Below are positions 8,634 to 54,804 of a stretch of 64,000 bases of DNA, in pieces. The position numbers and the translations under genes were made by a program. Source of the stretch: Bacteriovoracaceae bacterium. Its GTDB lineage: Bacteria > Bdellovibrionota > Bacteriovoracia > Bacteriovoracales > Bacteriovoracaceae. Numbering within the stretch: position 1 is the first letter of the stretch; the number at the start of each line of letters is the position of its first letter. The stretch is from contig JABIHA010000075.1 of assembly GCA_018649885.1 (NCBI GenBank), forward strand, positions 1 through 64,000. Direction: 5' to 3'. The notes under the pieces are model-generated. The model searched no databases and was not told the DNA's origin. It was given only the letters and a program-made list of their open reading frames with translations.

Positions 8634-8669
8634 AACTAATAAAACATAGAAGCTTAAAGGTAAGATACC

Positions 8670-19176: not shown

Positions 19177-19181
19177 AGCTT

Positions 19182-20183: not shown

Positions 20184-20196
20184 AATTTCCTCTTAA

Positions 20197-21186
20197 TTAC
20201 TTTCCCAAGGCTTCAAACCATGGCTTAGTTTCTTTTTCTATAGTCTCTGGAGTCCACACAGGTGCCTTGCTCCAGTAATCAATATTATCTAACATTATTT
20301 GAACACCCTGCTCAAAAGAAGTTTTGGGCTTCCAATCAACTGCCGCCAAAACTTTTTCAATATTAGCGTGAGTGCAATCGGGCTCTCCTGGCCTTTTGGG
20401 AATATAAGTTATCTCCCCGCCAAGTAGCTCCACTAAACGATTCACTGAATTTGGTGTTCCAGAGCCAATATTAAAGGCTTCGTCTTTAATTTCTGACCCA
20501 GCTAATTTATATAGAGCGCTCACAAGATCTTTGACAAAAATAAAATCTCTTGTTTGTTTGCCATCCCCCACTACAGTGTAAGGACTACCTGCAAGTTTTT
20601 GAGCGAGGAAGGTTCCAAAAACGGCGCCATAAGTGCCAGAGGTTCTAGACCTAGGTCCGTAAACATTAAAAAATCTTGTGGTTATAACTGGTAAATCGTA
20701 GAGTTTTCCCCAATGTAAAACCATCTCTTCACCCATTCTCTTGGTGAGAGCGTAAGGATACTCAACCCTAATTTCGGCCTCTTCATTTGTTGGGTAATTA
20801 TCTGGAATTCCATAACAAGAAGATGAGGCTGCATAGACAAATTTCTTCAAATTTTTTGAAAGTCTAGCTGCTTGCAAAACCTTCAATGTCCCGGTCACAT
20901 TACTTTGATAGTAAAGCTCAGGGTTTTGCACTGAAGGTACAATGTCCGCAAGAGCAGCAATATGAAAAATGTAATCGGCGTCAGTAGCCAGTTCGTTCAA
21001 TCTTGGGTCAGTAGAAATATCCAGTTCCACAATTTCAAGTTGATCATTGTCTGCAAGATGATCGAGATTAGATTTTCTTCCCGTCGAGAAATTATCTACA
21101 ACAACAACTTTGAGATCTTTCGAAATAAGTAGATCAACCAAGTGTGATCCAATAAATCCTGCTCCGCCTGTTACTAATGCTTTCAT
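20197..21186 (-). CDS. NAD-dependent sugar epimerase/dehydratase
   Basis: GGAGFIGSH, AALADIVPS, YALTK, FFNVYGPR. Confidence 0.88.
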   Translation of the reverse strand: MKALVTGGAGFIGSHLVDLLISKDLKVVVVDNFSTGRKSNLDHLADNDQLEIVELDISTDPRLNELATDADYIFHIAALADIVPSVQNPELYYQSNVTGTLKVLQAARLSKNLKKFVYAASSSCYGIPDNYPTNEEAEIRVEYPYALTKRMGEEMVLHWGKLYDLPVITTRFFNVYGPRSRTSGTYGAVFGTFLAQKLAGSPYTVVGDGKQTRDFIFVKDLVSALYKLAGSEIKDEAFNIGSGTPNSVNRLVELLGGEITYIPKRPGEPDCTHANIEKVLAAVDWKPKTSFEQGVQIMLDNIDYWSKAPVWTPETIEKETKPWFEALGK

Positions 21187-21195
21187 ATCAAACCT

Positions 21196-21933
21196 TTAAA
21201 AATTAAAATTATAGTGATTAATTTCAGATCTAGCCAACTCTAGCCTCTCGCCAGTATCAATGGCCACCCGATGGGCTTCCCCTAGCTTATAAGCGTAGAG
21301 ATTACCTTCTTTTACTAGGTGCGGAAAAATATCCTTTGGCCAATCAGAAATCTCATTTTTTTGTATATATCCCAAAGTTTCAGGGCTAATGCAATAAATA
21401 GCTGAATTGACCCAATAGGGCTCACCTGAAGCATTTGCTGGATTATTTTTAGGCCTTTCTAGGAACCTCACCACTTTTCCGCTCTGGTCCATCTCAACGT
21501 AGCTATTAGACTTGTGTCTCTGGTGTACAACCATTGAGGCAAGTCCCGAGTGTGAGTGGTGAAATTTCATGAACTCCCTGTAATCGAGATCAGTTAAAAT
21601 ATCTCCGTAAATAACAAGAAGATGGTCAGTTGGATTACCGGCAAGTTCATGCATTCGAAGAACACCCCCAGCAGTACCTGTTGGGGCGGGCTCATGGAGA
21701 TAGGTTATATTTAATCCAAGAGCTGAACCATCAGAAAAATATTCCGTGAACGCTTTTGCAAGATAGTGAAGATTGATCACCACATTGCTCACCCCTAAGG
21801 ATTTTAAATGTCTTAAGGTGTATTCAAGAAGAGGTTTTCCATTAATATCCAGCATCGGTTTTGGGCAACTTTTAGTGGCCTCACCCATTCTGGTTCCAAA
21901 CCCAGCACAGAGAAGATAAGCAGTTACATTCAC
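21196..21933 (-). CDS. Sugar-1-phosphate nucleotidyltransferase (HddC/mannose-1-P guanylyltransferase-like)
   Basis: LLCAGFGTRM, PKPM, GTAGG, YGD; GTG start overlaps the gmhB stop (GTGA). Confidence 0.85.
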   Translation of the reverse strand: MNVTAYLLCAGFGTRMGEATKSCPKPMLDINGKPLLEYTLRHLKSLGVSNVVINLHYLAKAFTEYFSDGSALGLNITYLHEPAPTGTAGGVLRMHELAGNPTDHLLVIYGDILTDLDYREFMKFHHSHSGLASMVVHQRHKSNSYVEMDQSGKVVRFLERPKNNPANASGEPYWVNSAIYCISPETLGYIQKNEISDWPKDIFPHLVKEGNLYAYKLGEAHRVAIDTGERLELARSEINHYNFNF

Positions 21934-22523
21934 TCCCCACCCCCTACACACGCTAAAAGTTCTTCTAGTTGATTAATTTCAAAGTCTGGCTTTTTGTCAG
22001 CCTCGTCTATTTCGAGCTCTGTTTTAATTAAGGCCTCATTTGCTTTAGCCGTTTTAAGCCAGACAGTTTTGCACCCTGCTAAGTTGCCAGCAATGATGTC
22101 GGAAATTCGGTCCCCCACCAGATAACTACGCGTAAGCTCAATTCCCAAATCCTGCTGGGCCTTAAATAGCATTCCAGGCCTGGGCTTTCTAAGGGGAGAA
22201 TCCAGTCTAAACTCATCAATTTGTGCGTTGGGATGAAATGGGCAGAGGTAAATCCCATCAAATAGCTCGTCTCCCTTCTGGGGGGAGCAAATATTATCTA
22301 AGATTTGGCTATTGAGATCCATCGCTGCTTCAAGTGAGAGAATCCCCCTTGATACAACAGTCTGATTTGTAACCAAGATGATTTTAAACCCTCTTCTCTT
22401 TAAAGTTGTAAGCACCCTAGCTGCACCATCAATATATTTGATGTCACCAATGTGTGAAGGCAAATGGGTATCTTCAATAAGGACACCATCCCTATCGAAA
22501 AAGACAGCTGCATTATTTCGCAA
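21930..22523 (-). CDS. gmhB: D,D-heptose-1,7-bisphosphate phosphatase (HAD IIIA)
   Basis: FFDRDGVL, VTNQ, CPFHP, RKPRPGM, VGDRISD. Confidence 0.85.
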   Translation of the reverse strand: MRNNAAVFFDRDGVLIEDTHLPSHIGDIKYIDGAARVLTTLKRRGFKIILVTNQTVVSRGILSLEAAMDLNSQILDNICSPQKGDELFDGIYLCPFHPNAQIDEFRLDSPLRKPRPGMLFKAQQDLGIELTRSYLVGDRISDIIAGNLAGCKTVWLKTAKANEALIKTELEIDEADKKPDFEINQLEELLACVGGGE

Positions 22524-22817
22524 GGCTCATCCCCTATGTAAACTCTGTAGACAAACTTATACTATATTTAAGTTTAATTGTTGTTCATTTACAAAGTTCA
22601 TTTCAATAAAAATACTAATGCCAAAGCGAAGCCAGGCTAAAAATTGAGGTCAGTTTGGCCACAAAAGGCCGTAAAATAAGGGCCGTTTCGAGGCCTACAA
22701 TTGGGCAATTAATGCTAGTAGCAATAAACCGGGAATTGAAATTCAACGCGCTACAGCCACAAATGGTTCGACTACCCATCTCCGCAAAAGTAATATATAT
22801 TACGTATATGGTACATG

Positions 22818-22847
22818 TTGAAACCATGATATTCATCATGGTTTCAA
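22818..22847. promoter_or_regulatory. Perfect 13-bp inverted repeat upstream of a B12 radical SAM gene
   Basis: ttgaaaccatgat-attc-atcatggtttcaa; function unknown. Confidence 0.4.
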
Positions 22848-22884
22848 TGTTCACCAAATTAAGTCGCCATATCAAAGAGGATTC

Positions 22885-24444
22885 ATGAAAGTACTATTTA
22901 TATACCCAAATTATCAAGGCTACGCTCGAGTTCCACTAGGCCTCTCTATTCCAATGACAGTTCTAATGGAAGCGGGACATGAAGTTGGACTTTTTGATAC
23001 AACATTTATTTTAAGTAGTATTAATACTGACAACGAAGCACGTGAAGCTGCTGGACTTGTTAAGCCAACAGACACATCTCATTTTTTTACTCCTCATTCT
23101 CCCGAAGAAGTTGATGAAATGCTTCGGCAAAAAATTAGAGACTTTAATCCTGACCTTGTGGGAATAAGTATATTAGAAGACAACTACGAATATTCTGATC
23201 GTCTTCTTAAAGTTCTTAAAGAACTAAAGCCAGACCTTCCAGTCATTGCTGGCGGCACAACTCCAACAGTGGCTCCAGATGTACTCATTAAAAATCCTGG
23301 AATTGATTATCTCATTAGAGGAGAAGGCGAATGGGCCTTGAGAGACTTTTGTGAAAAATTTGAAAAAGGTGAATCCCTTGAAAAAGTTAATAATCTCGTT
23401 TACCTGAGAGATGACGGAATGGTGGTCTCCAATCCACTGGGACCATTTCTAAACTTAGATGACCTGCCCCCTCAAAATTTAGATTTATGGGACGACGGCC
23501 ACTTCGTAAAGGCCTACGATGGCGGCTTATATAAAACAGGCTTCTTTGAGATGTCCAGGGGATGCATGCTTAAATGCACTTACTGTGTCAACGTAACCTA
23601 CCAAGATATATTTGAAGATTCTGGCAGATATTTTAGAGTTAAGTCTGTTGAAAAAGCAGTTGAAGAAATTAAACTACTAAAAGAGAAATACGGATTTGAA
23701 AGAATATTCTTCTGTGATGATAATTTTCTTTCTATGCCGAAAATAAGATTTGATGCCTTTGTAGATGTCTGGCAAAAAGAAGTTGGTCTTCCATTTTGGA
23801 TGAATACAACTATAGAAGCCATCGGCTCTAATAGAGACAGAATTGAAAGGCTAAAAGAAGTTGGATGTTGCGGAATTGGTCTTGGCCTTGAAACAGGAAG
23901 TGACTGGTTTAGAAGAAATATTCTCCACAAAAGAATCAAAAACGATCGTATATATAAAACAGTCAGTATTTTACACGACTTTGGATACAGAACGACGGCC
24001 AATATCATGATTGGTTTTCCTGGTGAATATCTCTACGATATTTATCAAAGCATTCAATTTGTAAAAGAGATTGAGGCCAAAAGTTGTGACGTCACCTTTG
24101 TGGCCCCATACTATGCAACCCCAATTTTTAAAGTCGCCAAAAAAATGGGCCTGATTGATGTGTGGGAAGATCGCCCTGGCTTTAATGGCATGGCCCAGCA
24201 TATTGGAATGAGACAAGGCCCTCAGATTAATATTCCAACCATTTCAAAAGATAAACTCAACGAAATATATCTCACATTCATGGACTACGTTGAAGGGAAA
24301 ATTGAAGTTCCCGCTAAGTACATTCAACTTGATGAGTCTGAACCGATGATTGAAAGTAGAAAATCTGTTTTAAAAACATTTAGAGATCTATTTCTCAATC
24401 CTGCATGGTTAACTAAAGAAGGCGTTGAAGAAAGGTATCTCTAG
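22885..24444 (+). CDS. B12-binding radical SAM protein
   Basis: N-terminal B12-binding-like domain (PLGL, IAGG, IRGEGE); SRGCMLKCTYC; DDNF; GLETGS. Confidence 0.9.
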   Translation: MKVLFIYPNYQGYARVPLGLSIPMTVLMEAGHEVGLFDTTFILSSINTDNEAREAAGLVKPTDTSHFFTPHSPEEVDEMLRQKIRDFNPDLVGISILEDNYEYSDRLLKVLKELKPDLPVIAGGTTPTVAPDVLIKNPGIDYLIRGEGEWALRDFCEKFEKGESLEKVNNLVYLRDDGMVVSNPLGPFLNLDDLPPQNLDLWDDGHFVKAYDGGLYKTGFFEMSRGCMLKCTYCVNVTYQDIFEDSGRYFRVKSVEKAVEEIKLLKEKYGFERIFFCDDNFLSMPKIRFDAFVDVWQKEVGLPFWMNTTIEAIGSNRDRIERLKEVGCCGIGLGLETGSDWFRRNILHKRIKNDRIYKTVSILHDFGYRTTANIMIGFPGEYLYDIYQSIQFVKEIEAKSCDVTFVAPYYATPIFKVAKKMGLIDVWEDRPGFNGMAQHIGMRQGPQINIPTISKDKLNEIYLTFMDYVEGKIEVPAKYIQLDESEPMIESRKSVLKTFRDLFLNPAWLTKEGVEERYL

Positions 24445-25130
24445 TGACGCAAACTGTAGCGATCATTCCTGCAAGAGGTGGTTCCAAAGGAATCCCTAAA
24501 AAAAACCTCATCCCATTTTGTGGTAAACCACTAATAGCGTGGAGTATCGAACAGGCCGTATCAGCATCCCACATCGATTCAGTTTGGGTCACCTCAGACG
24601 ATGAGGAGATCCTATCAGTTGCACAGTCTTACGGTGCCAACCCCATACTAAGACCAAATGATATTTCGGGAGATGGTGCCAGCTCTGAGTCTGCCTGGAT
24701 TCATGCAGTTGATGACATACGAAACAAAGGCATAGATATTGATCTGGCCATTGGCATTCAGGCTACCTCTCCTCTTAGAGAGGCCAAGGACCTTGACCTG
24801 GCCATTGAAAAATTTAGAAATGATCAGCTGGATTCATTGTTTTCAGCATCACTCATTGAAGACTTCTTTATTTGGGAAGAAGACGACGACGGTAATCTTA
24901 AAAGCCAAAATTATGACCATTTAAATAGAAAAAGAAGACAAGATATCAAACCTCAATACGTTGAAAATGGATCGTTCTATCTATTTAAGCCTGATGATAT
25001 TTCTAAATTTGATAATAGGCTTAGTGGAAAAATAGGATTTTCGATCATGGAATTCTGGAAGACCTTTGAAATCGATTCGATGGAAGATTTAGAATTTTGT
25101 GAGGCCTTGATGAAGCATTACCTAACTTAA
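24444..25130 (+). CDS. neuA: Acylneuraminate (CMP-ulosonate) cytidylyltransferase
   Basis: IIPARGGSKGIPKKN, QATSPLR, ENGSFY, EIDSMED. Confidence 0.87.
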   Translation: MTQTVAIIPARGGSKGIPKKNLIPFCGKPLIAWSIEQAVSASHIDSVWVTSDDEEILSVAQSYGANPILRPNDISGDGASSESAWIHAVDDIRNKGIDIDLAIGIQATSPLREAKDLDLAIEKFRNDQLDSLFSASLIEDFFIWEEDDDGNLKSQNYDHLNRKRRQDIKPQYVENGSFYLFKPDDISKFDNRLSGKIGFSIMEFWKTFEIDSMEDLEFCEALMKHYLT

Positions 25131-25196
25131 TCTTGATAAGTTACTTTAATCACCTCAATTGAATTATTCGATAAAATTTAAGCTTGTGTTCATTAC

Positions 25197-25643
25197 TTAA
25201 TTAAGTTCTTTCTCCAACATAATTATGATCTCTTCGTCATGGTCACTTTGCTGAGTACCTATAATATTGAATCCATACTTAATATTATAAATGAGCATCT
25301 CCTTGAATCGGTTTTCTGTAAATGTTCGGACTCTTGAATAACCTAAATTCGATATTATCTCCTGCTGCTTTTTTGACAGCTCTTTTGCAACGCCTTTCCT
25401 ACGAAAATCTGGATGAACACCTCCGATCCAGCTGTAGAATAGTCTTGCCGATAACTCATATCCCACCTTGTAACCAATAGGTTTGTTTTCTTCATAAGCA
25501 ATTAGGACGACTAGAGCATGTTTTACATTGGCCTCTCTTTGAAGTTTTTCTTTCGTATATGGATTATCAAAAATAGCTTCCTCAAGAGAAAAAATTTCCT
25601 CTGCAATCACATCACTTATTTTATTATACTCCTTGATTTTCAT
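25197..25643 (-). CDS. GNAT acetyltransferase
   Basis: GYKVGY, YSWIGGVHPDFRRKGVA, NIKYGF. Confidence 0.85.
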   Translation of the reverse strand: MKIKEYNKISDVIAEEIFSLEEAIFDNPYTKEKLQREANVKHALVVLIAYEENKPIGYKVGYELSARLFYSWIGGVHPDFRRKGVAKELSKKQQEIISNLGYSRVRTFTENRFKEMLIYNIKYGFNIIGTQQSDHDEEIIIMLEKELN

Positions 25644-25649
25644 TTCTAC

Positions 25650-26198
25650 CTACACCCTTCCTATGAATTCATAAGTCTCATTGGTAAATTTTAGGCCAAA
25701 CACATCTGGATTTTGAAGATTCCTCCAAAAATCAAAATTAAATTTAGGGTCAACCTTATTTAAAAACAGAGAAATAGCGTTTCCGTGAGAAGAAATAGCA
25801 ATGACTTCATCTCCTACATCAATCATGGAGTTTGTGATTGCCTGGAATACCCTGGCTTGGCATTCATTTGAAGATTCCCCATTCGGCAATTTATAGTCAA
25901 AATCAATCCAAGTTTTTTCTAATTCTTCAAGCCAGTTATCAATCATACCTGCGCTTAATTCTCTTTCTCTCAAGTCGTGGTTTTGAGTAATGTCGATGCA
26001 ATATTTCTCGGCAAATGGAGTCACTGTGTGGATAGCTCTAGGATATGGACTGGAAATGATTTTATTTATTTTGAGCTCTGCGAGTTTAGATATCAGCTCA
26101 CTAGCTTGCTTTTGTCCAGCAGGACTTAGTGGCCAGTCACACTCATTAATATCTTTGCTAGGAGCACTTTCAGCATGTCTAATAAGAATTAAGTTCAC
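25650..26198 (-). CDS. Histidine phosphatase (phosphoglycerate mutase family)
   Basis: LIRHAES, SSPYPRA, LRER, GES, SHG. Confidence 0.88.
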   Translation of the reverse strand: MNLILIRHAESAPSKDINECDWPLSPAGQKQASELISKLAELKINKIISSPYPRAIHTVTPFAEKYCIDITQNHDLRERELSAGMIDNWLEELEKTWIDFDYKLPNGESSNECQARVFQAITNSMIDVGDEVIAISSHGNAISLFLNKVDPKFNFDFWRNLQNPDVFGLKFTNETYEFIGRV

Positions 26199-26245
26199 TA
26201 GCAGCTCCGAACAATAATACCAAACTTACTATAGGTACAAAAAAA

Positions 26246-26992
26246 TCAACTTAACAGGTTTAGAGAGATATTTGCAATATTAATAACATCATCCGGTTTG
26301 AGCTTTTCAGCTTCTTCATCATTATATTTATGATTATCTAAGAGCTTTTGAATCAGCCTTGAGTCATCACCACCTTGTCGAACTAACCATTTCAATGCGT
26401 TTTGCTTCGACAAACATTTCCCCGTAAGTTCTAATGATTTTATTCTTGCTGCTCCACTTGCAATCCAAATGGCTGGATCAATTGGAAGATATTTATCAGC
26501 AGGCATTTTTTTAACTTTGCGTATTATTTTTCCTATATAAGGAATCCAATATTGCTGTTTGTTGGCCTTGGCCCAATCAATTAAGTTTTCCCTACTAACC
26601 TCAGGTAAAATATCTGTAAGAGAGAACTCTCCAAAAATTTTCTTGGACTGGTATTTTAGAGACCATTGCTCTGGAGTAGGTAACGATTTTGGGAATAAGT
26701 TATGCTTTTCATTCAATAAGCTTTTTGAGTACAATTTTGAATCATCTTCATAAACAATATATCCATCTAACAGAATCTCATGGTTTTTAGTTTTCCAATC
26801 ACCTATTAATTTATCGAAGTCCTCTAGGAGAGATTTGTTCTTAATTATAAAAACGACATCGAGATCGCTACGCGAAGGTGCCCAAAACCCCGTTACACTC
26901 GATCCAAATAAAAAACATGTAGATTTAATTGTAGACTGAAGATTGAAGTGAGCTTTCAAATTACTTATGTAATCATCTAATTTCTTTTTCAT
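26246..26992 (-). CDS. Pol-beta-superfamily nucleotidyltransferase (aminoglycoside adenylyltransferase-like)
   Basis: LFGSSVTG...SDLDVV; C-terminal helical region with SK..AL.W. Confidence 0.65.
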   Translation of the reverse strand: MKKKLDDYISNLKAHFNLQSTIKSTCFLFGSSVTGFWAPSRSDLDVVFIIKNKSLLEDFDKLIGDWKTKNHEILLDGYIVYEDDSKLYSKSLLNEKHNLFPKSLPTPEQWSLKYQSKKIFGEFSLTDILPEVSRENLIDWAKANKQQYWIPYIGKIIRKVKKMPADKYLPIDPAIWIASGAARIKSLELTGKCLSKQNALKWLVRQGGDDSRLIQKLLDNHKYNDEEAEKLKPDDVINIANISLNLLS

Positions 26993-27010
26993 AATCTCTT
27001 TCGAATAATC

Positions 27011-27042
27011 AACGATAGCATCGCTTCGGGCCTTCTATTGTT
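27011..27042 (-). terminator. Possible terminator hairpin after the KdnB-like gene
   Basis: aacgatag...ctattgtt arms a few bases past the stop; no clear U-tract. Confidence 0.3.
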
Positions 27043-27050
27043 ATGCGCTC

Positions 27051-28112
27051 TTACATTCTAAGATAAAGCTCTTTAATCACATCCCGAGTAAAAATATTTC
27101 TCCAATCTGTACCAAGAGCATTTTCGAGAGGTTTTTCCATCAAAAGAGTTATATCAATCATCTTCTCTAACATTTCCTCTGAAAGATCAGCGCAAAGACC
27201 CCTTCTAATAGTGATATTGTGCTTTTTTACCATCTCTCTGAACTCTTCCATATAGTCTGGATAGTATTGATCGAGGTAATCGAAAGCAATGACGTTGCCT
27301 TCACCGTGATGAATACCAAAAGCATAGCTAAGACCATAAGACATTGCATGGCAGACACCAACTTCTGAGTAGACAATTGAGTTACCACCAAACATTGAGG
27401 CAATCATCATATCACCATGAGTGCCATCACCTAGAAAACGTTTTCTAGTTAGATCTAGAGCCTTTTCAGCATAAGCTTTACTAAAATCATTTAAGTAACA
27501 ACCACAAAGAGACTCAACACTATGGATATAACAGTCCATCGCAGTGTAAAAAGCCTGCTCAGTAGGAACTGTTTCCAATAAATTTGGATCAAGTACAATT
27601 TGGTCGTATAAAGAAAAATTACTATTTATTCCTTGTTTCTTTTCTGGGCCCATTAGGACACAGGTTCTTGAAACTTCGGCTCCAGTTCCTGAGACAGTTG
27701 GAATTCCAACTTTATAAACTGGTTTATTCTTGGGTAGATCCCAACCTTGATAATCACTAGATGATCCATCATTGGTTAGCATTATAGAAACGGCTTTACC
27801 TACATCTAAAACTGAGCCGCCACCGAATGCAACGACTGCGCAAGGAAGATCACCAGAGTCTTTAATCTTTTTCGTGTATTCATCAATAACTACAGTTTTA
27901 GGCTCTTCACTAGTATCAACTTGAAAAAATAGATCCCCGCTATCAACTCTAATATTGTATTTTTCAAGATCCTTAAAATAATGATCTACAAAAAATACAA
28001 TATGCCCACTTCCCGCTCTTCTCTCATCGAGAAGTTCATTTAATTGGGAAATGGCTCCCACGCCAAACATTGTTTTAGGGACAGATAAAAAGTTTTTTAT
28101 TGGGGCAACCAT
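27051..28112 (-). CDS. kdnB: Iron-containing alcohol dehydrogenase, Kdo 8-oxidase (KdnB)-like
   Basis: EEPKT, GGGSVLDVGKAVS, YQGWDL, PTVSGTGAEVSRT, MDCYIHSVESL, VGVCHAMSYGLS, HHG. Confidence 0.75.
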   Translation of the reverse strand: MVAPIKNFLSVPKTMFGVGAISQLNELLDERRAGSGHIVFFVDHYFKDLEKYNIRVDSGDLFFQVDTSEEPKTVVIDEYTKKIKDSGDLPCAVVAFGGGSVLDVGKAVSIMLTNDGSSSDYQGWDLPKNKPVYKVGIPTVSGTGAEVSRTCVLMGPEKKQGINSNFSLYDQIVLDPNLLETVPTEQAFYTAMDCYIHSVESLCGCYLNDFSKAYAEKALDLTRKRFLGDGTHGDMMIASMFGGNSIVYSEVGVCHAMSYGLSYAFGIHHGEGNVIAFDYLDQYYPDYMEEFREMVKKHNITIRRGLCADLSEEMLEKMIDITLLMEKPLENALGTDWRNIFTRDVIKELYLRM

Positions 28113-29296
28113 TAAGCCTCTCCTCGGAGCTCTTTCATAGCACTTTTAGTACTAGAAATAAGGTAGTCAATATCTTTAGGATCCATATCAGATGCAAATG
28201 GAAATGAAATCATGTTATCAAAAAACCTGTCAGTTTCGGGACAATTTCCACCACTGCAACCGTTGTTGATGAAGAGCTCATACTTATATAGCGGATAATA
28301 CTGAACAACAGTTTTAATACCGTACTTAGTAAATAATAAATCAATTAAATCATCTCTCGTTTTACCATTACTTCCCTCATAGCGAGCTGGAAATAGATGA
28401 TAAGCACTAAGACAATTTTCGGGAACTTTTTGAAAGCTAAGCTCACTAAAGTCAGAAAGAGCATCGATTATTTGAGCGGCCTGATTTCTTCTTACTTCAT
28501 TAATTTTACCAATTCGCTTTAAGATCAAATCTCCTGCAAGCGCCTGGATTTCTCCCATGGCGAAATTATAAGGAATTTCTCCTGGGATCGCCTCTATGAT
28601 ATTTGACATAGCTGGCTGCCAATATTTTTTTTGGTTTAAAAAAGGACGGGCCCCAATTTTTCTAAGTCCTAAAATCTCTTCAACATACTTAGTTGAATTG
28701 GTTGTAAGCATTCCCCCTTCTCCGAGGGTGGTAATATTTTTTTGGCCGTGAAAACTAAAGCAGCCAAAATCTCCCCATGAACCTACTTTTTTACCGCAGT
28801 ATTCTGCTCCAGGAGCTTGGGCGCAATCTTCAACAACTAAAAGACCATTCTTACTGGCTATGTCCATCACTACGTCCATTTTTACTGGAAGGCCGTAAAG
28901 GTGGACAGGAACAATGACTTTAGATTTATTTGTGACTTTTTTTGCAAGATCATTTGTATCCATAACAAATGTTTCTGGATCAATATCAACAAATACAATT
29001 TTTGCTTTTCTTCTGATAAATGGCAGGGCCGTGGCTGCAAATGTATGAGCAGGAAGAAGAACCTCATCGCCCTCTTCAACCCTGCAAAGAATTGCTGCGA
29101 GCTCAAGAGCTGCTGTGGCACTACTGACACCAAAAGCATTTTCAACTCCAACAAAACTTGCGAAATTATCTTCAAATGCTTTTAGATTTGGTCCCATGGA
29201 AAGAGACTTTGCAGACTTTATCCCTTCACAAATGATATCGACTTCACTATCGGTTAATCTTGTTTGAATTCCAGGAAAATCAAGTTTTAAGTCCAT
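28112..29296 (-). CDS. DegT/DnrJ aminotransferase coupled to the KdnB-like gene
   Basis: PVHLYG, VEDCAQ, FSFHGQKNITTLGEGG; 1-bp overlaps with both neighbours. Confidence 0.88.
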   Translation of the reverse strand: MDLKLDFPGIQTRLTDSEVDIICEGIKSAKSLSMGPNLKAFEDNFASFVGVENAFGVSSATAALELAAILCRVEEGDEVLLPAHTFAATALPFIRRKAKIVFVDIDPETFVMDTNDLAKKVTNKSKVIVPVHLYGLPVKMDVVMDIASKNGLLVVEDCAQAPGAEYCGKKVGSWGDFGCFSFHGQKNITTLGEGGMLTTNSTKYVEEILGLRKIGARPFLNQKKYWQPAMSNIIEAIPGEIPYNFAMGEIQALAGDLILKRIGKINEVRRNQAAQIIDALSDFSELSFQKVPENCLSAYHLFPARYEGSNGKTRDDLIDLLFTKYGIKTVVQYYPLYKYELFINNGCSGGNCPETDRFFDNMISFPFASDMDPKDIDYLISSTKSAMKELRGEA

Positions 29297-30180
29297 TACA
29301 CACCTCTAAGTTTTTTTCTAGCAACTAACTCACTGTCACAGAGTTTTTTCACACCGTCTCCGACTGCTCCGCCAATAAGTCTTATATCTCTAGCTAACTT
29401 ATACATACCGTGAGGTTCTACTGAAGCAATTTGATCAGTCCCCCACATAGTTCTATCAAGAGTAATATGTCTTTCGATAAAATGAGCGCCAAAAGCTGCG
29501 GCCATGACAGTTGTGTCTAGACCAAATTCATGACCACTATAACCGATAACAACTTCTGGATATCGTTCAGTGAAAGTTTGGATCACTTTTATATTTAGCT
29601 CTTCAATAGGAGCTGGGTAAGCTGAGTGACAATGACAAAGTATCAACTGGCTTGTTTTAGACATGGCAAAATTGATAGCGTCATCAATTTCTTGTTGAGT
29701 ACTCATTCCTGAAGATAAAACAAGAGGTACTCCAGTTTGAGCTGTTTTTTCAATTAACTCATAGTTAGTTAAAAAAGCAGATGGAATTTTTATAAATGGT
29801 ACGTCGTAGTTTTTGACTAAAAAATCTAGACTATCAAGATCCCAAACTGAAGCGGTAAAATGAATATCTCTTCCAGTACAGAGCTCTTTTATATCATCGT
29901 ATTCAGGTTTTTCGAATTCAACTTTCTTTTTGTAATCAAGGTAGGTCATCTCGCCCCAAGGAGTTTCTCTCATGACACTTTTTTGATGTTCAGGGACACA
30001 CACATCAGGGTTTCTTTTTTGGAACTTTACGCAGTCAAAATCAAATACTGAGGCAAACTCAATTAATTTTTTTGCGATATCAACATCACCATTATGATTG
30101 ATTCCGATTTCACCACATATATATACAGGATGACCTTTGCCTACTGTTTTATTTCCCAGCTTTACAGATGCGCTCACCAT
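29296..30180 (-). CDS. neuB: NeuB-family PEP-dependent ulosonate synthase, short form without SAF/antifreeze domain
   Basis: EIGINHNG, KFQKRNPD, GYSGHE, ERHITLDRTMWGTDQ; 294 aa. Confidence 0.87.
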   Translation of the reverse strand: MVSASVKLGNKTVGKGHPVYICGEIGINHNGDVDIAKKLIEFASVFDFDCVKFQKRNPDVCVPEHQKSVMRETPWGEMTYLDYKKKVEFEKPEYDDIKELCTGRDIHFTASVWDLDSLDFLVKNYDVPFIKIPSAFLTNYELIEKTAQTGVPLVLSSGMSTQQEIDDAINFAMSKTSQLILCHCHSAYPAPIEELNIKVIQTFTERYPEVVIGYSGHEFGLDTTVMAAAFGAHFIERHITLDRTMWGTDQIASVEPHGMYKLARDIRLIGGAVGDGVKKLCDSELVARKKLRGV

Positions 30181-30353
30181 TTTCTCCTTATGCTTCTTAT
30201 ATTGTCTTAAATAGTAAATTAAAGACTAAATTTACAACATTACGGCCTAATAGGATAATTTATTTTTCTATTTTACTTACGACTCAACGTGACGCGTCCT
30301 GAGGAAATTATCTCTCGGTCCTGAGTATGAAAAAAATGAAAGAATTGAATGGA

Positions 30354-31496
30354 TTAAGATAGCTCGAAAATTAAATCACACAGCTCTCTGACCGCCCCTT
30401 CTCCACCATTTTTGCTGAGTACCAAATCGGAAATATCGAGTACCGGCTTATAAGCATCCCGTGGCGCACATGAGAAACCCACGAATTCCATGACCTCTAA
30501 ATCATTTAGATCATTTCCCATGTAGATTACACTTGAAGGGTCAATGCCATCGGCTAAACATTTTTCTTCTAAGTATTCTTTCTTGTTTGAACAACCATGA
30601 TGGACATCTATTCCGAGCTTTTTGGCCCTGGCCTTGACCACACTATTAACTTCGGTAGAAAGAATAAAAATTTCAATATCAGAGTTTTTTAACCTACTGA
30701 GTCCAAGTCCATCACTTCTGTCACATCTAACTAACTCGGAGCCATCATCCACAACAAAGACTTTATTATTAGTAAGGACACCATCAAAATCTAAAACAAG
30801 TAACTTTGGCTTAAAAAGATCTCTGCGTTTACGAGATGCTGAACCACTGCTTTTTTGAAGATTTGGCCCTTGATCTGAATTTAGTATGTCCCCCAATGAG
30901 GTACAAAGTGTGTTACAAACAGGTCTGTGAAGCTCTCTTGTCTCAAGGCTATTTGTTGCTGGAACATTCAAGAGAATATCTCCCCAATTTGCGAGATTTC
31001 CACTGTTAGAACCCATAAGACAGATAGACTTTATTCCAATTGATTTAGCTAATTTTAATGCATTTAAAATATTCTCACTGTTATCAGATGTTGAAATGGT
31101 TAAAAGAATATCTCCCTTTTTTCCTAGCCCCAAAAGCTGTTGAGCAAAGTGAAAGTCTGGATTCATACCATCAGAATTAGAGCTAATATTAGTGCCCAGT
31201 GAAATTGCGGCTATGGAATATTGAAGGTTAGTACAAAAGCTTTGAAGCTCTCCTGGAATCTGCTCTTTAAAATTCGCCTTTACACTTTCAGGAAGTGAGC
31301 CTTTAGGGTCTGTCCCAGTGAGCAATTGCGATGCAACTTGCTCACTGTCAAAAGCACTTCCACCAGTTCCACAGGTAAAAATAGTCCCACCGGATTTGGA
31401 GCTTTCATACAAACCCAAAAGCGCCTGCTCCAATGGAGCTTTGATTTTTTCTAGCGCAGGGTAGCGATTTATTAGCTCTTCAATGCTTCTTTGCAA
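30354..31496 (-). CDS. Fusion: degenerate GmhA-like SIS domain + KdsC/YrbI HAD phosphatase
   Basis: N-terminal CGTGGSAFD and ISTSDNSEN; C-terminal LDFDGVLT, RSDGLG, YMGNDLND, GGEGAVRE. Confidence 0.82.
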   Translation of the reverse strand: MQRSIEELINRYPALEKIKAPLEQALLGLYESSKSGGTIFTCGTGGSAFDSEQVASQLLTGTDPKGSLPESVKANFKEQIPGELQSFCTNLQYSIAAISLGTNISSNSDGMNPDFHFAQQLLGLGKKGDILLTISTSDNSENILNALKLAKSIGIKSICLMGSNSGNLANWGDILLNVPATNSLETRELHRPVCNTLCTSLGDILNSDQGPNLQKSSGSASRKRRDLFKPKLLVLDFDGVLTNNKVFVVDDGSELVRCDRSDGLGLSRLKNSDIEIFILSTEVNSVVKARAKKLGIDVHHGCSNKKEYLEEKCLADGIDPSSVIYMGNDLNDLEVMEFVGFSCAPRDAYKPVLDISDLVLSKNGGEGAVRELCDLIFELS

Positions 31497-31667
31497 AAAC
31501 TGTCTCTCTTGTTTGTGGTTTCTTACAATAGAATATACTTCTTTTTTATCAAATTATTCTGTTAAAGACCAATATCACTGAGTTTACCACCATTAGATTT
31601 TTTGCTGATTTCACAATATATGCTACTCTTCGCACACAGTTAAAAACCACCCAAGTGATTTAAAAAT

Positions 31668-33149
31668 ATGGCCAAAATAAAGCATTTTTTAAAAGAACAA
31701 TATTTTCAATTTTTTTTTGATGAGAAAAATAAATTAAAAAATACATGGTTGAAAAATATCTCTTTTATTTGGAATTTCCTACACCTTAAATTTTCTGGAA
31801 TTGAATCCTTACTTACAAAGTATATAAATTTAAAAAGCTTTGACTCGATTGAAAAAGGCAGCGCTGACTATCATTTAATTTCCGTTGTCTCGGAGAAACA
31901 AATATTTTTTATACCATTTTTTGAAAAAATCATGATCGATGCTCTTAGATTTAATACACTAAAAGCGAAAGGAAATATTCTTTTTAATGGCCCCACTCCT
32001 ACATCAGAATTGTTGACAGCACTTGATAAAAATTTTTCTTACCAATGCATTTCTGGCACTGATCTACTCCTCGTGAAAGTTAAAGAGCTGATTAAAAACT
32101 CTGACTCAAACACGGTACTTTTAAATATTCCTACTGATATTGCCCTCTCAGACCAAGAGTTTTTTCAGTCATTAAACTCACTGGAAAAGGAAATTATCTT
32201 TATCCAGTCATTTGATAATGCACAAAAATACCGTCTGTTCTCGAGTGATATTTTGGAATTAACAAAGCCAATTGACTATAAATGTCCAAATGATGCTTTA
32301 GAGAGAGTTAAAGAATTTAAAGAATTTGCAATTGAGTACCCAGTAATTAAGAAATTACATTCTTTCTATCAATCGAAAAATTTATTGATGGAAGAAAATG
32401 ACGAATATTTCTTTCTCTATAAAAAGCTTATAGCTTTTCGATTTTACTCACCAAATGACAGCCTTTTCCCCCAACTAAATCCAGCAGTCGACGGCAATTA
32501 CCAAAACTATATTGAATCCGATAGAGAGCTAAACTCTCTTATAGAGAAAATAAAAAATCGTAAAATTCTAGCAAGCACTATTGGGACCAGGCCTACTATG
32601 CCAAAAAATCCTGATGGAAGAGTATTAGTACATTTGGGTCCAGGTGATCAAGATGACCCACAATACACAAATGTGGACTCAAGAGATTTGCCTCATATTC
32701 ACATAGTTGAAGATGTTTTTTCCTCGAATATTTTTGAACCTGGAAGCGTAGACTTAATCTATGCCTGCCACCTGCTAGAGCATGTAAAGTATCAGGACAC
32801 TATCAAAATGCTCCAAAATTGGCACACATGGCTAAAACCCAAAGGTGTGCTGCGATTGTCCGTTCCAGATTTTTCCAAAATTACAGATACCTACAATGCA
32901 ACGAAAAGTATTAGCTCTATTCAAACAGCGTTAATGGGTGGCCAAAATTATGCTGCCAACTTTCATTTAGCTATGTTTGATCAGCATTTTCTGAAAAATT
33001 GCTTGGAAAAAGCAGGCTTTAAACAGAGCAGGAAATGGCACCCCGAAGAATGCCGCGAATATACATTTAATGATTGGGCATCCAAAAAGATGACCTACAA
33101 CAACCAAAACTTTGAAATTAGTCTTAATCTTGAGGCTACAAAGAGCTAA
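31668..33149 (+). CDS. Unknown N-terminal region + class I SAM methyltransferase-like domain
   Basis: C-terminal VHLGPG, IYACHLLEH, LKPKGVLRLSVPDF, SLNLEA. Confidence 0.7.
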   Translation: MAKIKHFLKEQYFQFFFDEKNKLKNTWLKNISFIWNFLHLKFSGIESLLTKYINLKSFDSIEKGSADYHLISVVSEKQIFFIPFFEKIMIDALRFNTLKAKGNILFNGPTPTSELLTALDKNFSYQCISGTDLLLVKVKELIKNSDSNTVLLNIPTDIALSDQEFFQSLNSLEKEIIFIQSFDNAQKYRLFSSDILELTKPIDYKCPNDALERVKEFKEFAIEYPVIKKLHSFYQSKNLLMEENDEYFFLYKKLIAFRFYSPNDSLFPQLNPAVDGNYQNYIESDRELNSLIEKIKNRKILASTIGTRPTMPKNPDGRVLVHLGPGDQDDPQYTNVDSRDLPHIHIVEDVFSSNIFEPGSVDLIYACHLLEHVKYQDTIKMLQNWHTWLKPKGVLRLSVPDFSKITDTYNATKSISSIQTALMGGQNYAANFHLAMFDQHFLKNCLEKAGFKQSRKWHPEECREYTFNDWASKKMTYNNQNFEISLNLEATKS

Positions 33150-35179: not shown

Positions 35180-36049
35180 ATGATAGTGAGTCGTGCAAAT
35201 AAACTAGTCCTCGGTACAGTGCAACTTGGTTTGAAGTATGGCATTGCCAATAAATCGGGAAGACCAAACCATGAAGAATCCAGGGAGATTTTAAAATTTG
35301 CAATGGATTCAGGAATCGATACCTTGGATACAGCACAGGCTTATGGTGACGTTCATGAGATCATTTCTAGTTTTCACCAAAACTCTCCAAAAAAATTTAA
35401 AATTCAAACTAAATTTAATTCTCTTCCATATAATATTGTAGATTACCTTAAGTCTCAGGCTGAACTTTTGAAGGTTCCTAGTATCGAAACTCTTTACTTT
35501 CATAGTTTTGAAGATTTTGAAAATTGCCTGGATTTCGAAAGCTTCAAAAAGGCTAAAGAGCTTGGCCTTTTAAATGAAATAGGTGTTTCAATTTATAATA
35601 CGAAGCAATTAGAGAAATGTATTTCAAATAAGTATATCGATACTATTCAAAGTCCATTTAACTTATTTGACAACTGGTCCGAGCGTGGAGCACTTTTTGA
35701 GAAGGCCCATTCAAATGGGAAAAAAATCTATACTCGATCTGTATTTTTACAGGGATTATTTTTTCTAAAAAAAGAAGAATTAAAAGGTGTTCTAAAGAAA
35801 ATGGAAGACTGTATTGAAAAAGTCCAACAGCTATCAAAAGAAAAGCAATTAAGTATTCAGGATTTGGCACTAAATTATTGCCTTAGCTTTGAGCAAGTAT
35901 CTGGTGTTCTGGTTGGTGTAGATACAAAAGGGCAGTTAGAGCAAAATCTAAAAGCCATGGATGTATCACTAGAAAAACAAACGATAGAGCAAATTAATGG
36001 ACTAAAAGTTAATTACCCCGAACTTTTAAATCCTGTAAACTGGGAATAA
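35180..36049 (+). CDS. Aldo/keto reductase
   Basis: LVLGTVQLGLKYGI, DTAQAYG, IGVSIY, RSVFLQG. Confidence 0.88.
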   Translation: MIVSRANKLVLGTVQLGLKYGIANKSGRPNHEESREILKFAMDSGIDTLDTAQAYGDVHEIISSFHQNSPKKFKIQTKFNSLPYNIVDYLKSQAELLKVPSIETLYFHSFEDFENCLDFESFKKAKELGLLNEIGVSIYNTKQLEKCISNKYIDTIQSPFNLFDNWSERGALFEKAHSNGKKIYTRSVFLQGLFFLKKEELKGVLKKMEDCIEKVQQLSKEKQLSIQDLALNYCLSFEQVSGVLVGVDTKGQLEQNLKAMDVSLEKQTIEQINGLKVNYPELLNPVNWE

Positions 36050-36052
36050 ATA

Positions 36053-37771
36053 ATGAATGATCAGTTTGGTGCAATTGTAACTGCAAGAATGGGATCAAGT
36101 AGATTTCCTGGAAAGTCCATGGTGAATATTTGTGGAAAACCTTCCCTTCAATGGCTAATCGAAAGAGTTCTTTCTTCCAAAAATATAGATGAGTTAATTA
36201 TTGCGACAACAATTGCAGAAAAAGACCTTCCAATAGTTGAGTTAGCAAAAAAGTTAGGAGTTCTTTGTATTCAAGGTCCTGTTGAGGATGTTCTGACCAG
36301 AGTCTATGAAGCATCTCTTTCCTTAAAATCTGATAGACTAATCTACCTCACAGGAGATTGCCCACTAACAGATCCAGGCATTATTGACTACATGATCGAC
36401 ATTTATAGGTCAAAAAATGAAGATTATCTAAAGAACTTCCAATGGGGTCCTGACGCAAAAAAAGAATGTGGATTCCCCAATGGACTAGATGTGGAAGTCT
36501 TTAGTAAAGAAATATTAAATTCTGTCCACGAAAAAGCAACTGACCCATGGCTCAGGGAACATGTTACAGAACCAATGTACACGTGGAAGGAATTCTCTCA
36601 CTTCACAGTTGAGGCCCCTGAAAAATGGAGAAGGCCACACTATAGAATATGTATAGATACAAAAGAAGACTACCAGCTTGTGAATACCATTTTTGAGGAA
36701 CTGATTGCTCAAAAGGTAGGCATTAGCGCCGAGAGTGCTATCACCTACCTAGATGACAATCCTGATCTTCTTAAGATTAACCAAACAACATCTCAAGCCA
36801 AGTACACTGCATGTATAATTGGACTAGGTAATATTGGATTTCTCTACGATTTAGACCCGAAACTTGACGGGATTCAAACCCATGCCAGTGCATATAGAAG
36901 ATGGTCATCCACTCGACTCGTAAGTGGTAGCGACCTAGATGAGTCTAGGTGTAAGCTCTTTAAAAATCATTATCAATTAGAAAATGTATATTCTAATTAT
37001 CACGATATGATTGAAAATGAAAAACCAGATATTGTCTCTGTTTGCACACCTCCAGAATTACAATATCAAATTATTTCGAGTCTTTTGAAGACTGATATTA
37101 AAGCCATATGGTGTGAAAAACCTTTTGGATTAGAACAAAGGCAGTGGATAGATATTTCTAAAAAACTTGAAGAAAAAAAAGTTCAACTCTTTGTTAATTA
37201 CTGGATGAGATTTACTCCCTTATTTTCAAATCTAAAAGCATACCTTGGAGAAGGAAACCTTGGAAAAATTTGGGGTGGAACATATATTTACTCTGGAGGA
37301 GGATATAATAGTGGTACCCATGCCCTAGATATTCTCAATTATCTTTTTGGCAAACCACTAAAATTCGATGCCACTTACAAAAGAAAATTAAAAAGCGGCG
37401 ATCATGGGATTGGAACCAATTTGCATTTTAAGGATGATGTGGTTTTCAATTTATTTCCAGGTAACAAAGAAAAACACTTTACCACTGAAATTGATATATT
37501 AGGTGAAAAGGGACGAATTAGAATTTCTGATCACAAGCCATTTGTAGAATATTTTGAATCAAAACCATCTGAAATAGAAAGTGGAGTGAATGAGCTCGTA
37601 AAAATGCCACAACTTCCATTTGACGGATCAAAATCAGATATTCAATTAAATGTTATTCAAAATATTACGCATTCCCTTGATGGAAATTCCCAGGCTCTTT
37701 GCACAGGAGACGATGGGTTGTGGGCAAGCCAGTACATGGATGAATTAAAAAAATCTTTAGGAGAAAATTAA
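36053..37771 (+). CDS. Fusion: SpsF-type cytidylyltransferase + Gfo/Idh/MocA oxidoreductase
   Basis: ARMGSSRFPGK, TGDCPL, REHVT; then IIGLGNIG, VSVCTPP, WCEKP, GTHALD. Confidence 0.85.
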   Translation: MNDQFGAIVTARMGSSRFPGKSMVNICGKPSLQWLIERVLSSKNIDELIIATTIAEKDLPIVELAKKLGVLCIQGPVEDVLTRVYEASLSLKSDRLIYLTGDCPLTDPGIIDYMIDIYRSKNEDYLKNFQWGPDAKKECGFPNGLDVEVFSKEILNSVHEKATDPWLREHVTEPMYTWKEFSHFTVEAPEKWRRPHYRICIDTKEDYQLVNTIFEELIAQKVGISAESAITYLDDNPDLLKINQTTSQAKYTACIIGLGNIGFLYDLDPKLDGIQTHASAYRRWSSTRLVSGSDLDESRCKLFKNHYQLENVYSNYHDMIENEKPDIVSVCTPPELQYQIISSLLKTDIKAIWCEKPFGLEQRQWIDISKKLEEKKVQLFVNYWMRFTPLFSNLKAYLGEGNLGKIWGGTYIYSGGGYNSGTHALDILNYLFGKPLKFDATYKRKLKSGDHGIGTNLHFKDDVVFNLFPGNKEKHFTTEIDILGEKGRIRISDHKPFVEYFESKPSEIESGVNELVKMPQLPFDGSKSDIQLNVIQNITHSLDGNSQALCTGDDGLWASQYMDELKKSLGEN

Positions 37772-37772
37772 A

Positions 37773-40687: not shown

Positions 40688-40693
40688 ATCACT

Positions 40694-54786: not shown

Positions 54787-54804
54787 CCATTTGAGAGAGC
54801 AAGC

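What the first reader, a model, noticed from the sequence alone, without database searches (positions are those of the whole stretch)
27051..31496. Putative pathway to a terminal-amino nonulosonate: the Kdo8N oxidase/aminotransferase logic grafted onto a NeuB synthase
Seen: short NeuB, DegT aminotransferase and KdnB-like oxidase are joined by 1-bp overlaps, preceded by a KdsC-type phosphatase fusion, with a CMP-synthetase (24444) nearby. Known: Shewanella KdnB/KdnA oxidise and transaminate C8 of Kdo to Kdo8N, and NeuB plus HAD phosphatase plus CMP-synthetase is the Kdn-9-P route in Bacteroides. No NeuC-type hydrolysing epimerase is visible in this block. Inference: sugar-P + PEP gives ulosonate-P, which is dephosphorylated, oxidised and aminated at the freed terminal carbon (for example 9-amino-9-deoxy-Kdn) and CMP-activated. 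This is my strongest candidate for an undescribed pathway here.
Basis: partly seen in the sequence, partly recalled or inferred. Interest (0 to 1): 0.78.

Follow-up and report, generated by a model that had tools for sequence, protein, structure and literature searches.

The report
Predicted pathway to an amino-Kdn sugar
Five clustered genes, found together in unrelated bacteria, likely make a sialic-acid-like surface sugar by building the nine-carbon sugar Kdn and then likely swapping its end hydroxyl for an amine, a step known from the eight-carbon sugar Kdo.

Summary
In detail: neuB, degT and a kdnB-like gene overlap by 1 bp. The oxidase matches Shewanella KdnB (49% identity, TM 0.96).

Three parts point to Kdn. 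NeuB groups with Bacteroidales Kdn-9-P-type synthases. The HAD carries the Glu/Lys pair of Kdn-9-P phosphatases. The CMP-synthetase keeps the Kdn gatekeeper arginine.

The cassette is conserved: 6 of the 8 closest loci, from different phyla, hold all five functions. In 6 of 7 such genomes this is the only NeuB, and two cassette genomes show no Kdo synthase or Kdo transferase.

Corrections: the aminotransferase is not a KdnA orthologue but a separate family, whose sister clade sits in sialic-acid-catabolism-like loci. The oxidase lies outside the KdnA-linked clade. The fused GmhA-like domain has lost its metal ligands.

Best reading: Man-6-P + PEP gives Kdn-9-P, then Kdn, 9-oxo-Kdn, 9-amino-9-deoxy-Kdn and its CMP form (about 0.5; any amino-Kdn about 0.7). 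The aminated carbon is inferred; C8 is the main rival, since an 8-amino nonulosonate exists in nature. No such pathway turned up in the papers searched. A related cassette matches the gene order of an unassigned Leptospira aminotransferase.

The parts
30354..31496 (-). Fusion of a degenerate GmhA-like SIS domain (about aa 1-205) and a C0-type HAD phosphatase (aa 230-378); predicted Kdn-9-P phosphatase
   Evidence: TIGR01670 109.6 bits over cut-off 106.95; NF058599 100.9 under 180. D236/D238 present; E282 and K293 match all 20 Bacteroidales Kdn-9-P-phosphatase-family proteins and are absent from the genome's own KdsC. SIS ligand positions read Q53, Q57, R187, N195.
29296..30180 (-). Short NeuB without SAF domain; predicted Kdn-9-P synthase (Man-6-P + PEP)
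   Evidence: PF03102 only. Under NeuB_NnaB and PseI cut-offs. On the same side of a 98-support split as the 17 NeuBs beside Bacteroidales Kdn-9-P phosphatases; KFQKR and GYSGHE motifs.
28112..29296 (-). DegT-family PLP aminotransferase of a distinct clade, not KdnA; predicted to aminate the oxidised ulosonate
   Evidence: PLP-site residues D157, Q160, S181, K186 conserved. Homologues are fused to a HAD, a CMP-synthetase or the Fe-ADH. 9-row clade, support 97.
27051..28112 (-). KdnB-like iron-containing alcohol oxidase/dehydrogenase; predicted to oxidise Kdn at C9
   Evidence: E 3e-109 to 5K8C. Model pLDDT 91.8, TM 0.96, rmsd 1.5 to 5K8C. D193/H197/H255/H269 invariant in its clade; differs from KdnA-linked enzymes at Q160, E250 and 325-329.
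24444..25130 (+). NeuA-type CMP-ulosonate synthetase with the Kdn gatekeeper arginine; likely partner
   Evidence: Top PDB hit PpNeuA 9T4Z; R192 aligns with its Arg196. 45-56% identical to synthetases inside related cassettes L179, L042, L035, L045, L124. Only tblastn hit in the genome at E<1e-8.
22885..24444 (+). B12-binding radical SAM protein overlapping the CMP-synthetase gene by 1 bp; possible tailoring enzyme, membership uncertain
   Evidence: B12-rSAM families, all under cut-off. 36-37% identical homologues flank the NeuB/DegT/CMP genes in L005 and L045 only.

Best explanation
The cassette likely makes CMP-9-amino-9-deoxy-Kdn: NeuB would condense mannose-6-phosphate with PEP to Kdn-9-P, the HAD would remove the phosphate, the KdnB-like enzyme would oxidise the freed C9 alcohol to an aldehyde, the DegT would transaminate it, and the NeuA-type enzyme would activate the product for a surface glycan. 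Shown: gene identities, overlaps, signature residues, conservation and independence from Kdo, NeuC and Pse genes in relatives. Inferred: every reaction, the substrate, the aminated carbon and the order of amination and CMP activation. The SIS domain is likely inactive as an isomerase.
For: (1) Kdn signatures in three enzymes: NeuB tree and motifs, HAD E282/K293, CMP-synthetase R192 = PpNeuA Arg196, which excludes a C5 N-acetyl group. (2) 6 of the 8 closest loci have all four partners; of the other two, one is a 2.4-kb contig and one lacks the oxidase and HAD. (3) In 6 of 7 of their genomes this is the only NeuB-family match, and 6 of 7 show no NeuC. (4) G027 and G030 carry the cassette but show no KdsA over cut-off and no WaaA. 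(5) In L147 and L124 the oxidase, NeuB, HAD and CMP genes stay while a KdnA-related or a class IV aminotransferase stands in. (6) The sister DegT clade sits beside an aldo-keto reductase in 9 of 20 loci examined, with NanM-like, DHDPS-family, BNR and transporter genes in some, which fits a free amino-ulosonate substrate. (7) For C9: the pair recurs with routes that keep the terminal OH (sugar-P + HAD; NeuC + NeuB in L048 and L054; hydrolase without a PseB-like dehydratase in 17 of 17 further regions). From established stereochemistry, Kdo C4-C8 and Kdn C5-C9 are both D-manno when aligned from the terminal carbon, and mismatch at C4 and C6 when aligned from C1.
Against: No activity or glycan data. 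An 8-amino nonulosonate occurs in Flexibacter (Tenacibaculum) maritimus, and C8 is the carbon KdnB attacks in Kdo. This genome also has KdsA/KdsC, a PseB/PseC-like pathway about 20 kb away and a WecB-family epimerase, so other substrates are available. The HAD scores under the Kdn-9-P phosphatase cut-off. CMP-synthetases of the closest cassettes have Trp, not Arg, at the gatekeeper position. The CMP gene here is on the other strand. G027 is a MAG, so absence is soft. The hydrolase-type loci could draw a 6-deoxy sugar from elsewhere in the genome, and their oxidases have a different pocket (Y259A, M325H). L005 lacks the oxidase.
Confidence: 0.5

Rival explanations
1. Same pathway, but the oxidase attacks C8, the same carbon number as in Kdo8N. 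The product is 8-amino-8-deoxy-Kdn or, in this genome, an 8-amino derivative of the Pse-like sugar made by the genes at 50832-55944.
For: An 8-amino-5,7-diamino nonulosonate is a natural O-antigen sugar (PMC3210612). R149, K159, N163, Y248 and Y259 are shared with KdnA-linked KdnB, so a ring-anchored pocket could keep C8. PseB and PseC-like genes are in this window and in L045.
Against: 6 of 7 closest genomes have no second NeuB, so Pse cannot be the substrate there. Among the NeuBs scored, none adjoining the oxidase/DegT pair passed the PseI cut-off. The stereochemistry matches from the terminus, not from C1. The T. maritimum O-antigen table read lists no Fe-ADH, but it covers one locus of one strain.
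Confidence: 0.17
2. The pair acts before NeuB, on a hexose phosphate (as in the kanosamine NtdC/NtdA/NtdB route, recalled) or a nucleotide sugar. The amine then ends up at C5-C7 of the nonulosonate.
For: Most DegT enzymes act on keto nucleotide sugars or sugar phosphates, and these are the top PDB hits. In 17 of 17 further regions the pair sits directly before an NDP-sugar-hydrolase-like gene.
Against: The oxidase is about 50% identical to KdnB and far from other Fe-ADHs. The sister DegT clade lies among ulosonate-catabolism-like genes. A KdnA-related enzyme substitutes in L147.
Confidence: 0.1
3. Terminal amination is right but the backbone is not Kdn: ManNAc-6-P gives 9-amino-Neu5Ac, heptose-7-P gives a ten-carbon acid, or Ara-5-P gives a 4-epi-Kdo.
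For: A GmhA-like domain is fused to the phosphatase. A WecB-family gene is in the window. L048 and L054 pair the genes with NeuC. L069 has an intact GmhA beside a short NeuB.
Against: The SIS ligands are lost and no second fusion was found among 1644 candidates. R192 disfavours a C5 N-acetyl group. The HAD has Kdn-type rather than Kdo-type residues.
Confidence: 0.09
4. The pair makes Kdo8N for LPS, and the Kdn genes are unrelated neighbours.
For: The genome has KdsA and KdsC. The oxidase has the KdnB fold.
Against: No KdnA orthologue in the genome (best 38%). The oxidase is outside the 72-row KdnA-linked clade. Two cassette genomes show no Kdo genes. 0 of 80 KdnB loci had both a KdnA of at least 50% identity and a NeuB.
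Confidence: 0.06
5. Kdn is oxidised and aminated at C5, giving neuraminic acid: a NeuC-free route to sialic acid.
For: L. interrogans L1-130, whose gene order matches a related cassette, makes a compound with the mass and retention time of Neu5Ac in sialic-acid-free medium. Those cassettes have the Trp-type CMP-synthetase.
Against: R192 here selects for C5-OH. C5 is a ring secondary alcohol, unlike KdnB's substrate. That strain also encodes a NeuC/LegG homologue. N-acetylated 8- or 9-amino-Kdn has the same mass as Neu5Ac.
Confidence: 0.05

Closest known systems
Kdo8N pathway of Shewanella oneidensis (KdnB 5K8C, KdnA 5K8B)
   Same: Oxidase fold, metal ligands and most pocket residues; oxidase next to a DegT aminotransferase. 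KdnB's role as first step of Kdo8N synthesis is stated in PMC5125639; mechanistic detail is recalled because the primary papers were not held.
   Different: The aminotransferase is a different clade. The oxidase is outside the KdnA-linked clade, with Q160/E250/MEKPL against L/Q/LxPLW. Partners are NeuB, a Kdn-type HAD and NeuA, not KdsB.
CMP-Kdn pathway of Bacteroides thetaiotaomicron (BT1713-1715) and Prymnesium parvum
   Same: Sugar-phosphate-type NeuB, C0 HAD with Glu/Lys, CMP-synthetase with the Kdn arginine, no NeuC.
   Different: Adds an oxidase and an aminotransferase; NeuB lacks the SAF domain; the HAD is under the NF058599 cut-off. Bacteroidales neighbours stood in for BT1714, which was not compared directly.
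8-amino nonulosonate of Flexibacter (Tenacibaculum) maritimus O-antigen
   Same: A side-chain-aminated nine-carbon ulosonate that would need oxidation and transamination.
   Different: It is 9-deoxy and 5,7-diamino (Pse-like). Its genes are unassigned.
Leptospira interrogans LA_1613-LA_1615 (neuB2, orphan aminotransferase, neuA2)
   Same: Order NeuB-DegT-NeuA matches L055 and 3 more genomes of its genus, followed there by a KdnB-like gene; the gene upstream in L055 matches the LA_1612 family. The aminotransferase's step was left open in PMC3438082.
   Different: 750-aa NeuB fusion, no separate HAD, Trp-type CMP-synthetase. The link rests on gene order only; no L. interrogans sequence was compared.

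Membership tests
Kdo8N system (KdnB/KdnA) | KdnB-type Fe-ADH fold with Asp/His/His/His metal site | tested here: met
Kdo8N system (KdnB/KdnA) | Oxidase falls in the KdnA-linked clade with its signature residues | tested here: not met
   Separate 9-row clade; L160Q, Q250E, 325-329 differ
Kdo8N system (KdnB/KdnA) | KdnA orthologue as partner | tested here: not met
Kdo8N system (KdnB/KdnA) | KdsB-type cytidylyltransferase partner | tested here: not met
   NeuA-type; KdsB structure hit only E 1e-11
Kdo8N system (KdnB/KdnA) | Converts Kdo to Kdo8N | not testable with these tools
   needs an enzyme assay
CMP-Kdn pathway | Sugar-phosphate-type NeuB | tested here: met
   Groups with NeuBs beside NF058599 phosphatases, FastTree support 98; proxies, not BT1714 itself
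CMP-Kdn pathway | Kdn-9-P phosphatase | tested here: inconclusive
   Glu/Lys pair present as in 20 of 20 family members (their role is recalled); score 100.9 under cut-off 180
CMP-Kdn pathway | CMP-synthetase with the Arg196-equivalent | tested here: met
   R192
CMP-Kdn pathway | Man-6-P + PEP gives Kdn-9-P | not testable with these tools
   needs an enzyme assay
Pse/Leg/bacterial Neu5Ac synthases | Score over PseI or NeuB_NnaB cut-off, SAF domain, NeuC or dehydratase in the cassette | tested here: not met
   163 under 340 and 230 under 400; no SAF; no NeuC
GmhA sedoheptulose-7-P isomerase | His/Glu/Gln/His metal site and GNGGS loop | tested here: not met
   Q53, Q57, R187, N195, T44 against the genome's own GmhA and P0242; ligand roles recalled

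The most novel reading that the evidence does not exclude
KdnB is one branch of a wider family of nonulosonate side-chain oxidases. With a dedicated DegT clade, these install a C9 amine on Kdn- and Neu5Ac-type sugars across many phyla, and a sister clade with an aldo-keto reductase degrades the products. N-acetylated 9-amino-Kdn is isomeric with Neu5Ac, so some bacterial 'Neu5Ac' assignments by mass, and unassigned DMB peaks in Leptospira (m/z 407 and 440), could be this class.
Probability: 0.3. Interest if true: 0.85.

Novelty: new variant of a known kind. Interest (0 to 1): 0.68.

Why it matters
Amino groups in bacterial nonulosonates normally come from the six-carbon precursor. This pathway would add one afterwards, on the side chain, giving a zwitterionic Kdn that four literature searches did not find. 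It names a concrete reaction for a widespread DegT clade (at least 577 matches in GTDB genomes) and for KdnB homologues that are annotated as Kdo oxidases. It suggests a role for an aminotransferase left unassigned in the Leptospira nonulosonate cluster. It warns that mass-only surveys could confuse the acetylated product with Neu5Ac. A selective C9 oxidase/transaminase pair would also be useful for making C9-modified sialic acids. All five enzymes are predicted to be cytoplasmic and could be tested with Kdn, Kdo and Man-6-P.

Tried and rejected
Heptose-7-P/decaulosonate reading: rejected, SIS ligands are lost and no second fusion was found.
DegT = KdnA: rejected.
Direction of the 'graft': the tree with 2 outgroup Fe-ADHs leaves the family base open and has long-branch warnings; no AU test was run.
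T. maritimum test of the C8 rival: the paper's table covers one locus and lists no Fe-ADH.
Promoter and terminator scan: at or below chance (23 against 27.7; 3 against 6.5).
Expression: one RNA run gave 3 contigs of 151-175 bases, which is no evidence.
Pocket geometry: the model gives no coordinates, so C8 against C9 could not be docked.
Primary KdnA/KdnB papers were not held; a search for the phosphatase specificity paper found nothing.
Earlier scan findings: 3 look-ups, nothing returned.
Atlas look-up of 40694-41770 did not complete, so no transferase in the window is assigned.
The DegT tree is the quick tree; the careful search did not finish.


Full report
OBSERVATION. The neuB/degT and degT/oxidase junctions are TAATG overlaps; the phosphatase fusion ends 173 bp before neuB. 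The NeuA-type gene is on the plus strand 1.9 kb past the oxidase and overlaps a B12 radical SAM gene by 1 bp. Contigs of 3 other marine DNA runs show no listed differences over 22800-31800, though none spans it. The oxidase is rare among kin: 2 of 61 genomes searched, including this one.

OXIDASE. The top PDB hits are Shewanella KdnB 5K8C and 3RF7 (E about 1e-109); the next hit is at 2e-20. The model (pLDDT 91.8) matches 5K8C with TM 0.96 and 49% identity. In a FastTree of 126 homologues, 72 rows form one clade (support 99) that holds the KdnA-linked proteins. The window protein falls in a separate 9-row clade (99) whose members all sit with this DegT and, where the contig allows, a HAD and a short NeuB. 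The four metal ligands and R149, K159, N163, Y248, Y259 are shared. Positions 160, 250 and 325-329 differ consistently (72 against 8 rows). Of 80 metagenome loci found with the oxidase alignment, 58 have a KdnA of at least 50% identity, 6 have NeuB, none has both and 16 have neither; L175 and L106 duplicate L007 and L004. With two outgroups the base of the family stays unresolved, so which pathway came first is open.

AMINOTRANSFERASE. It is not KdnA: 5K8B scores E 1.5e-29 for it but 6e-168 for a KdnA-type protein from L140, and that protein finds nothing over 38% in this genome. Among its 120 best homologues are fusions to a HAD (P0051), to a CMP-synthetase (P0062, P0072) and to the Fe-ADH (P0080). 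A GTDB scan confirmed at least 577 relatives and returned the best 80. The quick tree splits these into clade A (window + 8), B (30) and C (42). In A, 7 of 8 have the oxidase, 7 NeuB, and 6 have all four partners. In C, 38 of 42 have the oxidase, 35 NeuB and 4 all four. In B, none has the oxidase and 1 has a NeuB-like gene. Of 20 clade-B loci examined, 9 have an aldo-keto reductase, 4 a GntR-FCD regulator, 3 a BNR protein, and 2 each an SSF transporter, a NanM-like protein and a DHDPS-family lyase. I infer that the family handles free amino-ulosonates, forward in A and C and backward in B. Two loci keep oxidase, NeuB, HAD and CMP-synthetase but use another aminotransferase: KdnA-related in L147 and class IV in L124.

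KDN SIGNATURES. NeuB has no SAF domain and is under both NCBIfam cut-offs. It lies on the same side of a 98-support split as 17 NeuBs found beside Bacteroidales proteins over the Kdn-9-P phosphatase cut-off, away from the free-sugar types and from the window's second NeuB. These are proxies; BT1714 was not compared. The HAD has E282 and K293, as do 20 of 20 of those phosphatases, while the genome's KdsC does not; the role of this pair is recalled. The CMP-synthetase's top PDB hit is PpNeuA, and its R192 aligns with Arg196, which PMC12934254 shows to select Kdn over Neu5Ac; that enzyme also accepts 9-azido-Kdn (31% conversion) better than 5-azido-Kdn (10%). Five related cassettes share the arginine, but the closest clade-A cassettes use a shorter subtype with Trp. 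The SIS domain has Q53, Q57, R187 and N195 at the GmhA ligand positions, and the only other hit among 1644 candidates is an unfused, intact protein. I read it as a decayed passenger.

WHAT ELSE COULD BE THE SUBSTRATE. Seven of the 8 clade-A genomes were searched. Six have a single NeuB-family match and six have no NeuC. KdsA passes its cut-off in 13 of 19 genomes; G027 (Patescibacteria MAG) and G030 (Treponema primitia ZAS-10) have no such match and no WaaA. So in relatives the pair has no evident Pse, Leg or Kdo substrate, within the limits of incomplete genomes. In this genome KdsA/KdsC, a Pse-like pathway and a WecB-family gene do exist.

WHICH CARBON. This is inferred. For C9: KdnB oxidises a primary alcohol (recalled); Kdo C4-C8 and Kdn C5-C9 share the D-manno pattern when aligned from the terminus; the HAD frees exactly that hydroxyl; and the pair recurs with routes that keep it (NeuC + NeuB in L048 and L054; a hydrolase with no PseB-like gene in 17 of 17 further regions). 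Among the NeuBs scored, none adjoining the pair passed the PseI cut-off. Against: an 8-amino nonulosonate is known from F. maritimus, many pocket residues are unchanged from KdnB, L045 and this window have dehydratases nearby, and dehydratases outside the fetched regions were not searched. I put C9 on Kdn at 0.5, C8 at 0.17, upstream amination at 0.10, another backbone at 0.09, Kdo8N at 0.06 and C5 at 0.05.

LEPTOSPIRA. L055 and 3 more of 41 genomes of its genus have NeuB(750 aa)-DegT-NeuA-KdnB-like, and the gene upstream in L055 matches the LA_1612 family. L. interrogans LA_1613-1615 has the same first three genes, and PMC3438082 left the aminotransferase's step open, reported an endogenous Neu5Ac-like peak and left m/z 407 and 440 unassigned. 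Acylated amino-Kdn forms fit those unit masses. This is a lead from gene order only; the Neu5Ac peak also matched a standard in retention time and MS2.

LITERATURE SEEN. Passages: PMC3210612, PMC4052302, PMC5125639, PMC9796276 (supplement search 36; file 1 whole 39), PMC8208679, PMC4758666, PMC5979558, PMC6200933, PMC12934254. PMC3438082: passages (69) and parts 1-2 of 5 of section 3 (79, 82). Not held, so recalled: the two KdnA/KdnB papers and the phosphatase specificity work. Searches for the product or pathway: one search gave 2 papers, neither describing it in the passages read; searches gave 0. The library lacks most subscription carbohydrate journals, so absence from print is not established.

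VERDICT. A real, conserved cassette. It works like Kdo8N synthesis but is not a member of that system, and it extends the CMP-Kdn route by two enzymes. New variant of a known kind; interest 0.68.

Noticed in passing
L008-L038, L044, L052 and other clade-B loci (30 of 80): A sister clade of this DegT has no KdnB-like gene. It sits beside one aldo-keto reductase family (9 of 20 loci examined, 51-76% identical to L008's) and sometimes GntR-FCD, SSF, BNR, NanM-like or DHDPS-family genes: a candidate catabolic route for amino-ulosonates.
   Followed up: partly
L218-L234; L062, L073, L075: A conserved second cassette: KdnB-like, DegT, cytidylyltransferase-like/PseG-like fusion, SpsF, and a NeuB under both cut-offs (NeuB seen in 9 of 17 regions). 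The oxidases of this clade have Ala at Y259 and His at M325 in 22 of 22 rows aligned, which suggests a different substrate or site. In L028, L039-L041, L043 and L066 a 220-aa GT2 stands in place of the fusion.
   Followed up: partly
window 35180-42516: A module of aldo-keto reductase, SpsF-Gfo/Idh/MocA fusion, a second DegT (37773), GNAT and SpsF. Its DegT has 43-48% identical homologues near the KdnB-like cassette in L062, L124, L045, L047, L039 and L059: possibly a second late oxidation/amination step.
   Followed up: partly
window 50832-55944: Pseudaminic-acid-like genes: PseB over cut-off, PseC just under, a GT28-like hydrolase, and a long NeuB that passes neither PseI nor NeuB_NnaB.
   Followed up: partly
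L005:11178-11972: A cassette without the Fe-ADH has a radical SAM/SPASM gene directly after the DegT. It may replace the oxidase, as BtrN-type dehydrogenases do (recalled).
   Followed up: no
L001, L002, L003, L006, L064, L103 and DegT fusions P0062, P0072: A shortened CMP-synthetase subtype (about 25 residues missing, DDGN motif) travels with this DegT family and lacks the Kdn arginine.
   Followed up: partly
L003:9019-9984 (homologues in L002, L103): A conserved unknown gene between neuB and degT. Atlas neighbours at 0.99 include a cluster with Glyphos_transf on 11% of members: a candidate GT-B transferase for the product.
   Followed up: partly
L188-L191, L055: 5 of 41 genomes of the genus around G018 carry a KdnB-like gene; 4 have NeuB(750 aa)-DegT-NeuA-KdnB with WbuX/HisF/HisH-like genes upstream. 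DMB masses for Kdn+Na (407.11), dehydrated N-acetimidoyl amino-Kdn (407.16) and methylated N-acetyl amino-Kdn (440.17) fit peaks left unassigned in PMC3438082; unit-mass coincidences only.
   Followed up: partly
window 17617-22523 and 8022-10707: HldE-like, HddC-like and GmhB-like genes with two epimerases, and separately a SIS protein with split transketolase-like/E1 genes and two DegTs: further unusual sugar pathways in a glycan region that fills the whole window and continues to about 84 kb of the contig.
   Followed up: no
window 25197-26992: Three genes (GNAT, histidine phosphatase, unassigned 248 aa) lie between the oxidase and the CMP-synthetase; none had a match in the 45 related loci compared.
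   Followed up: no
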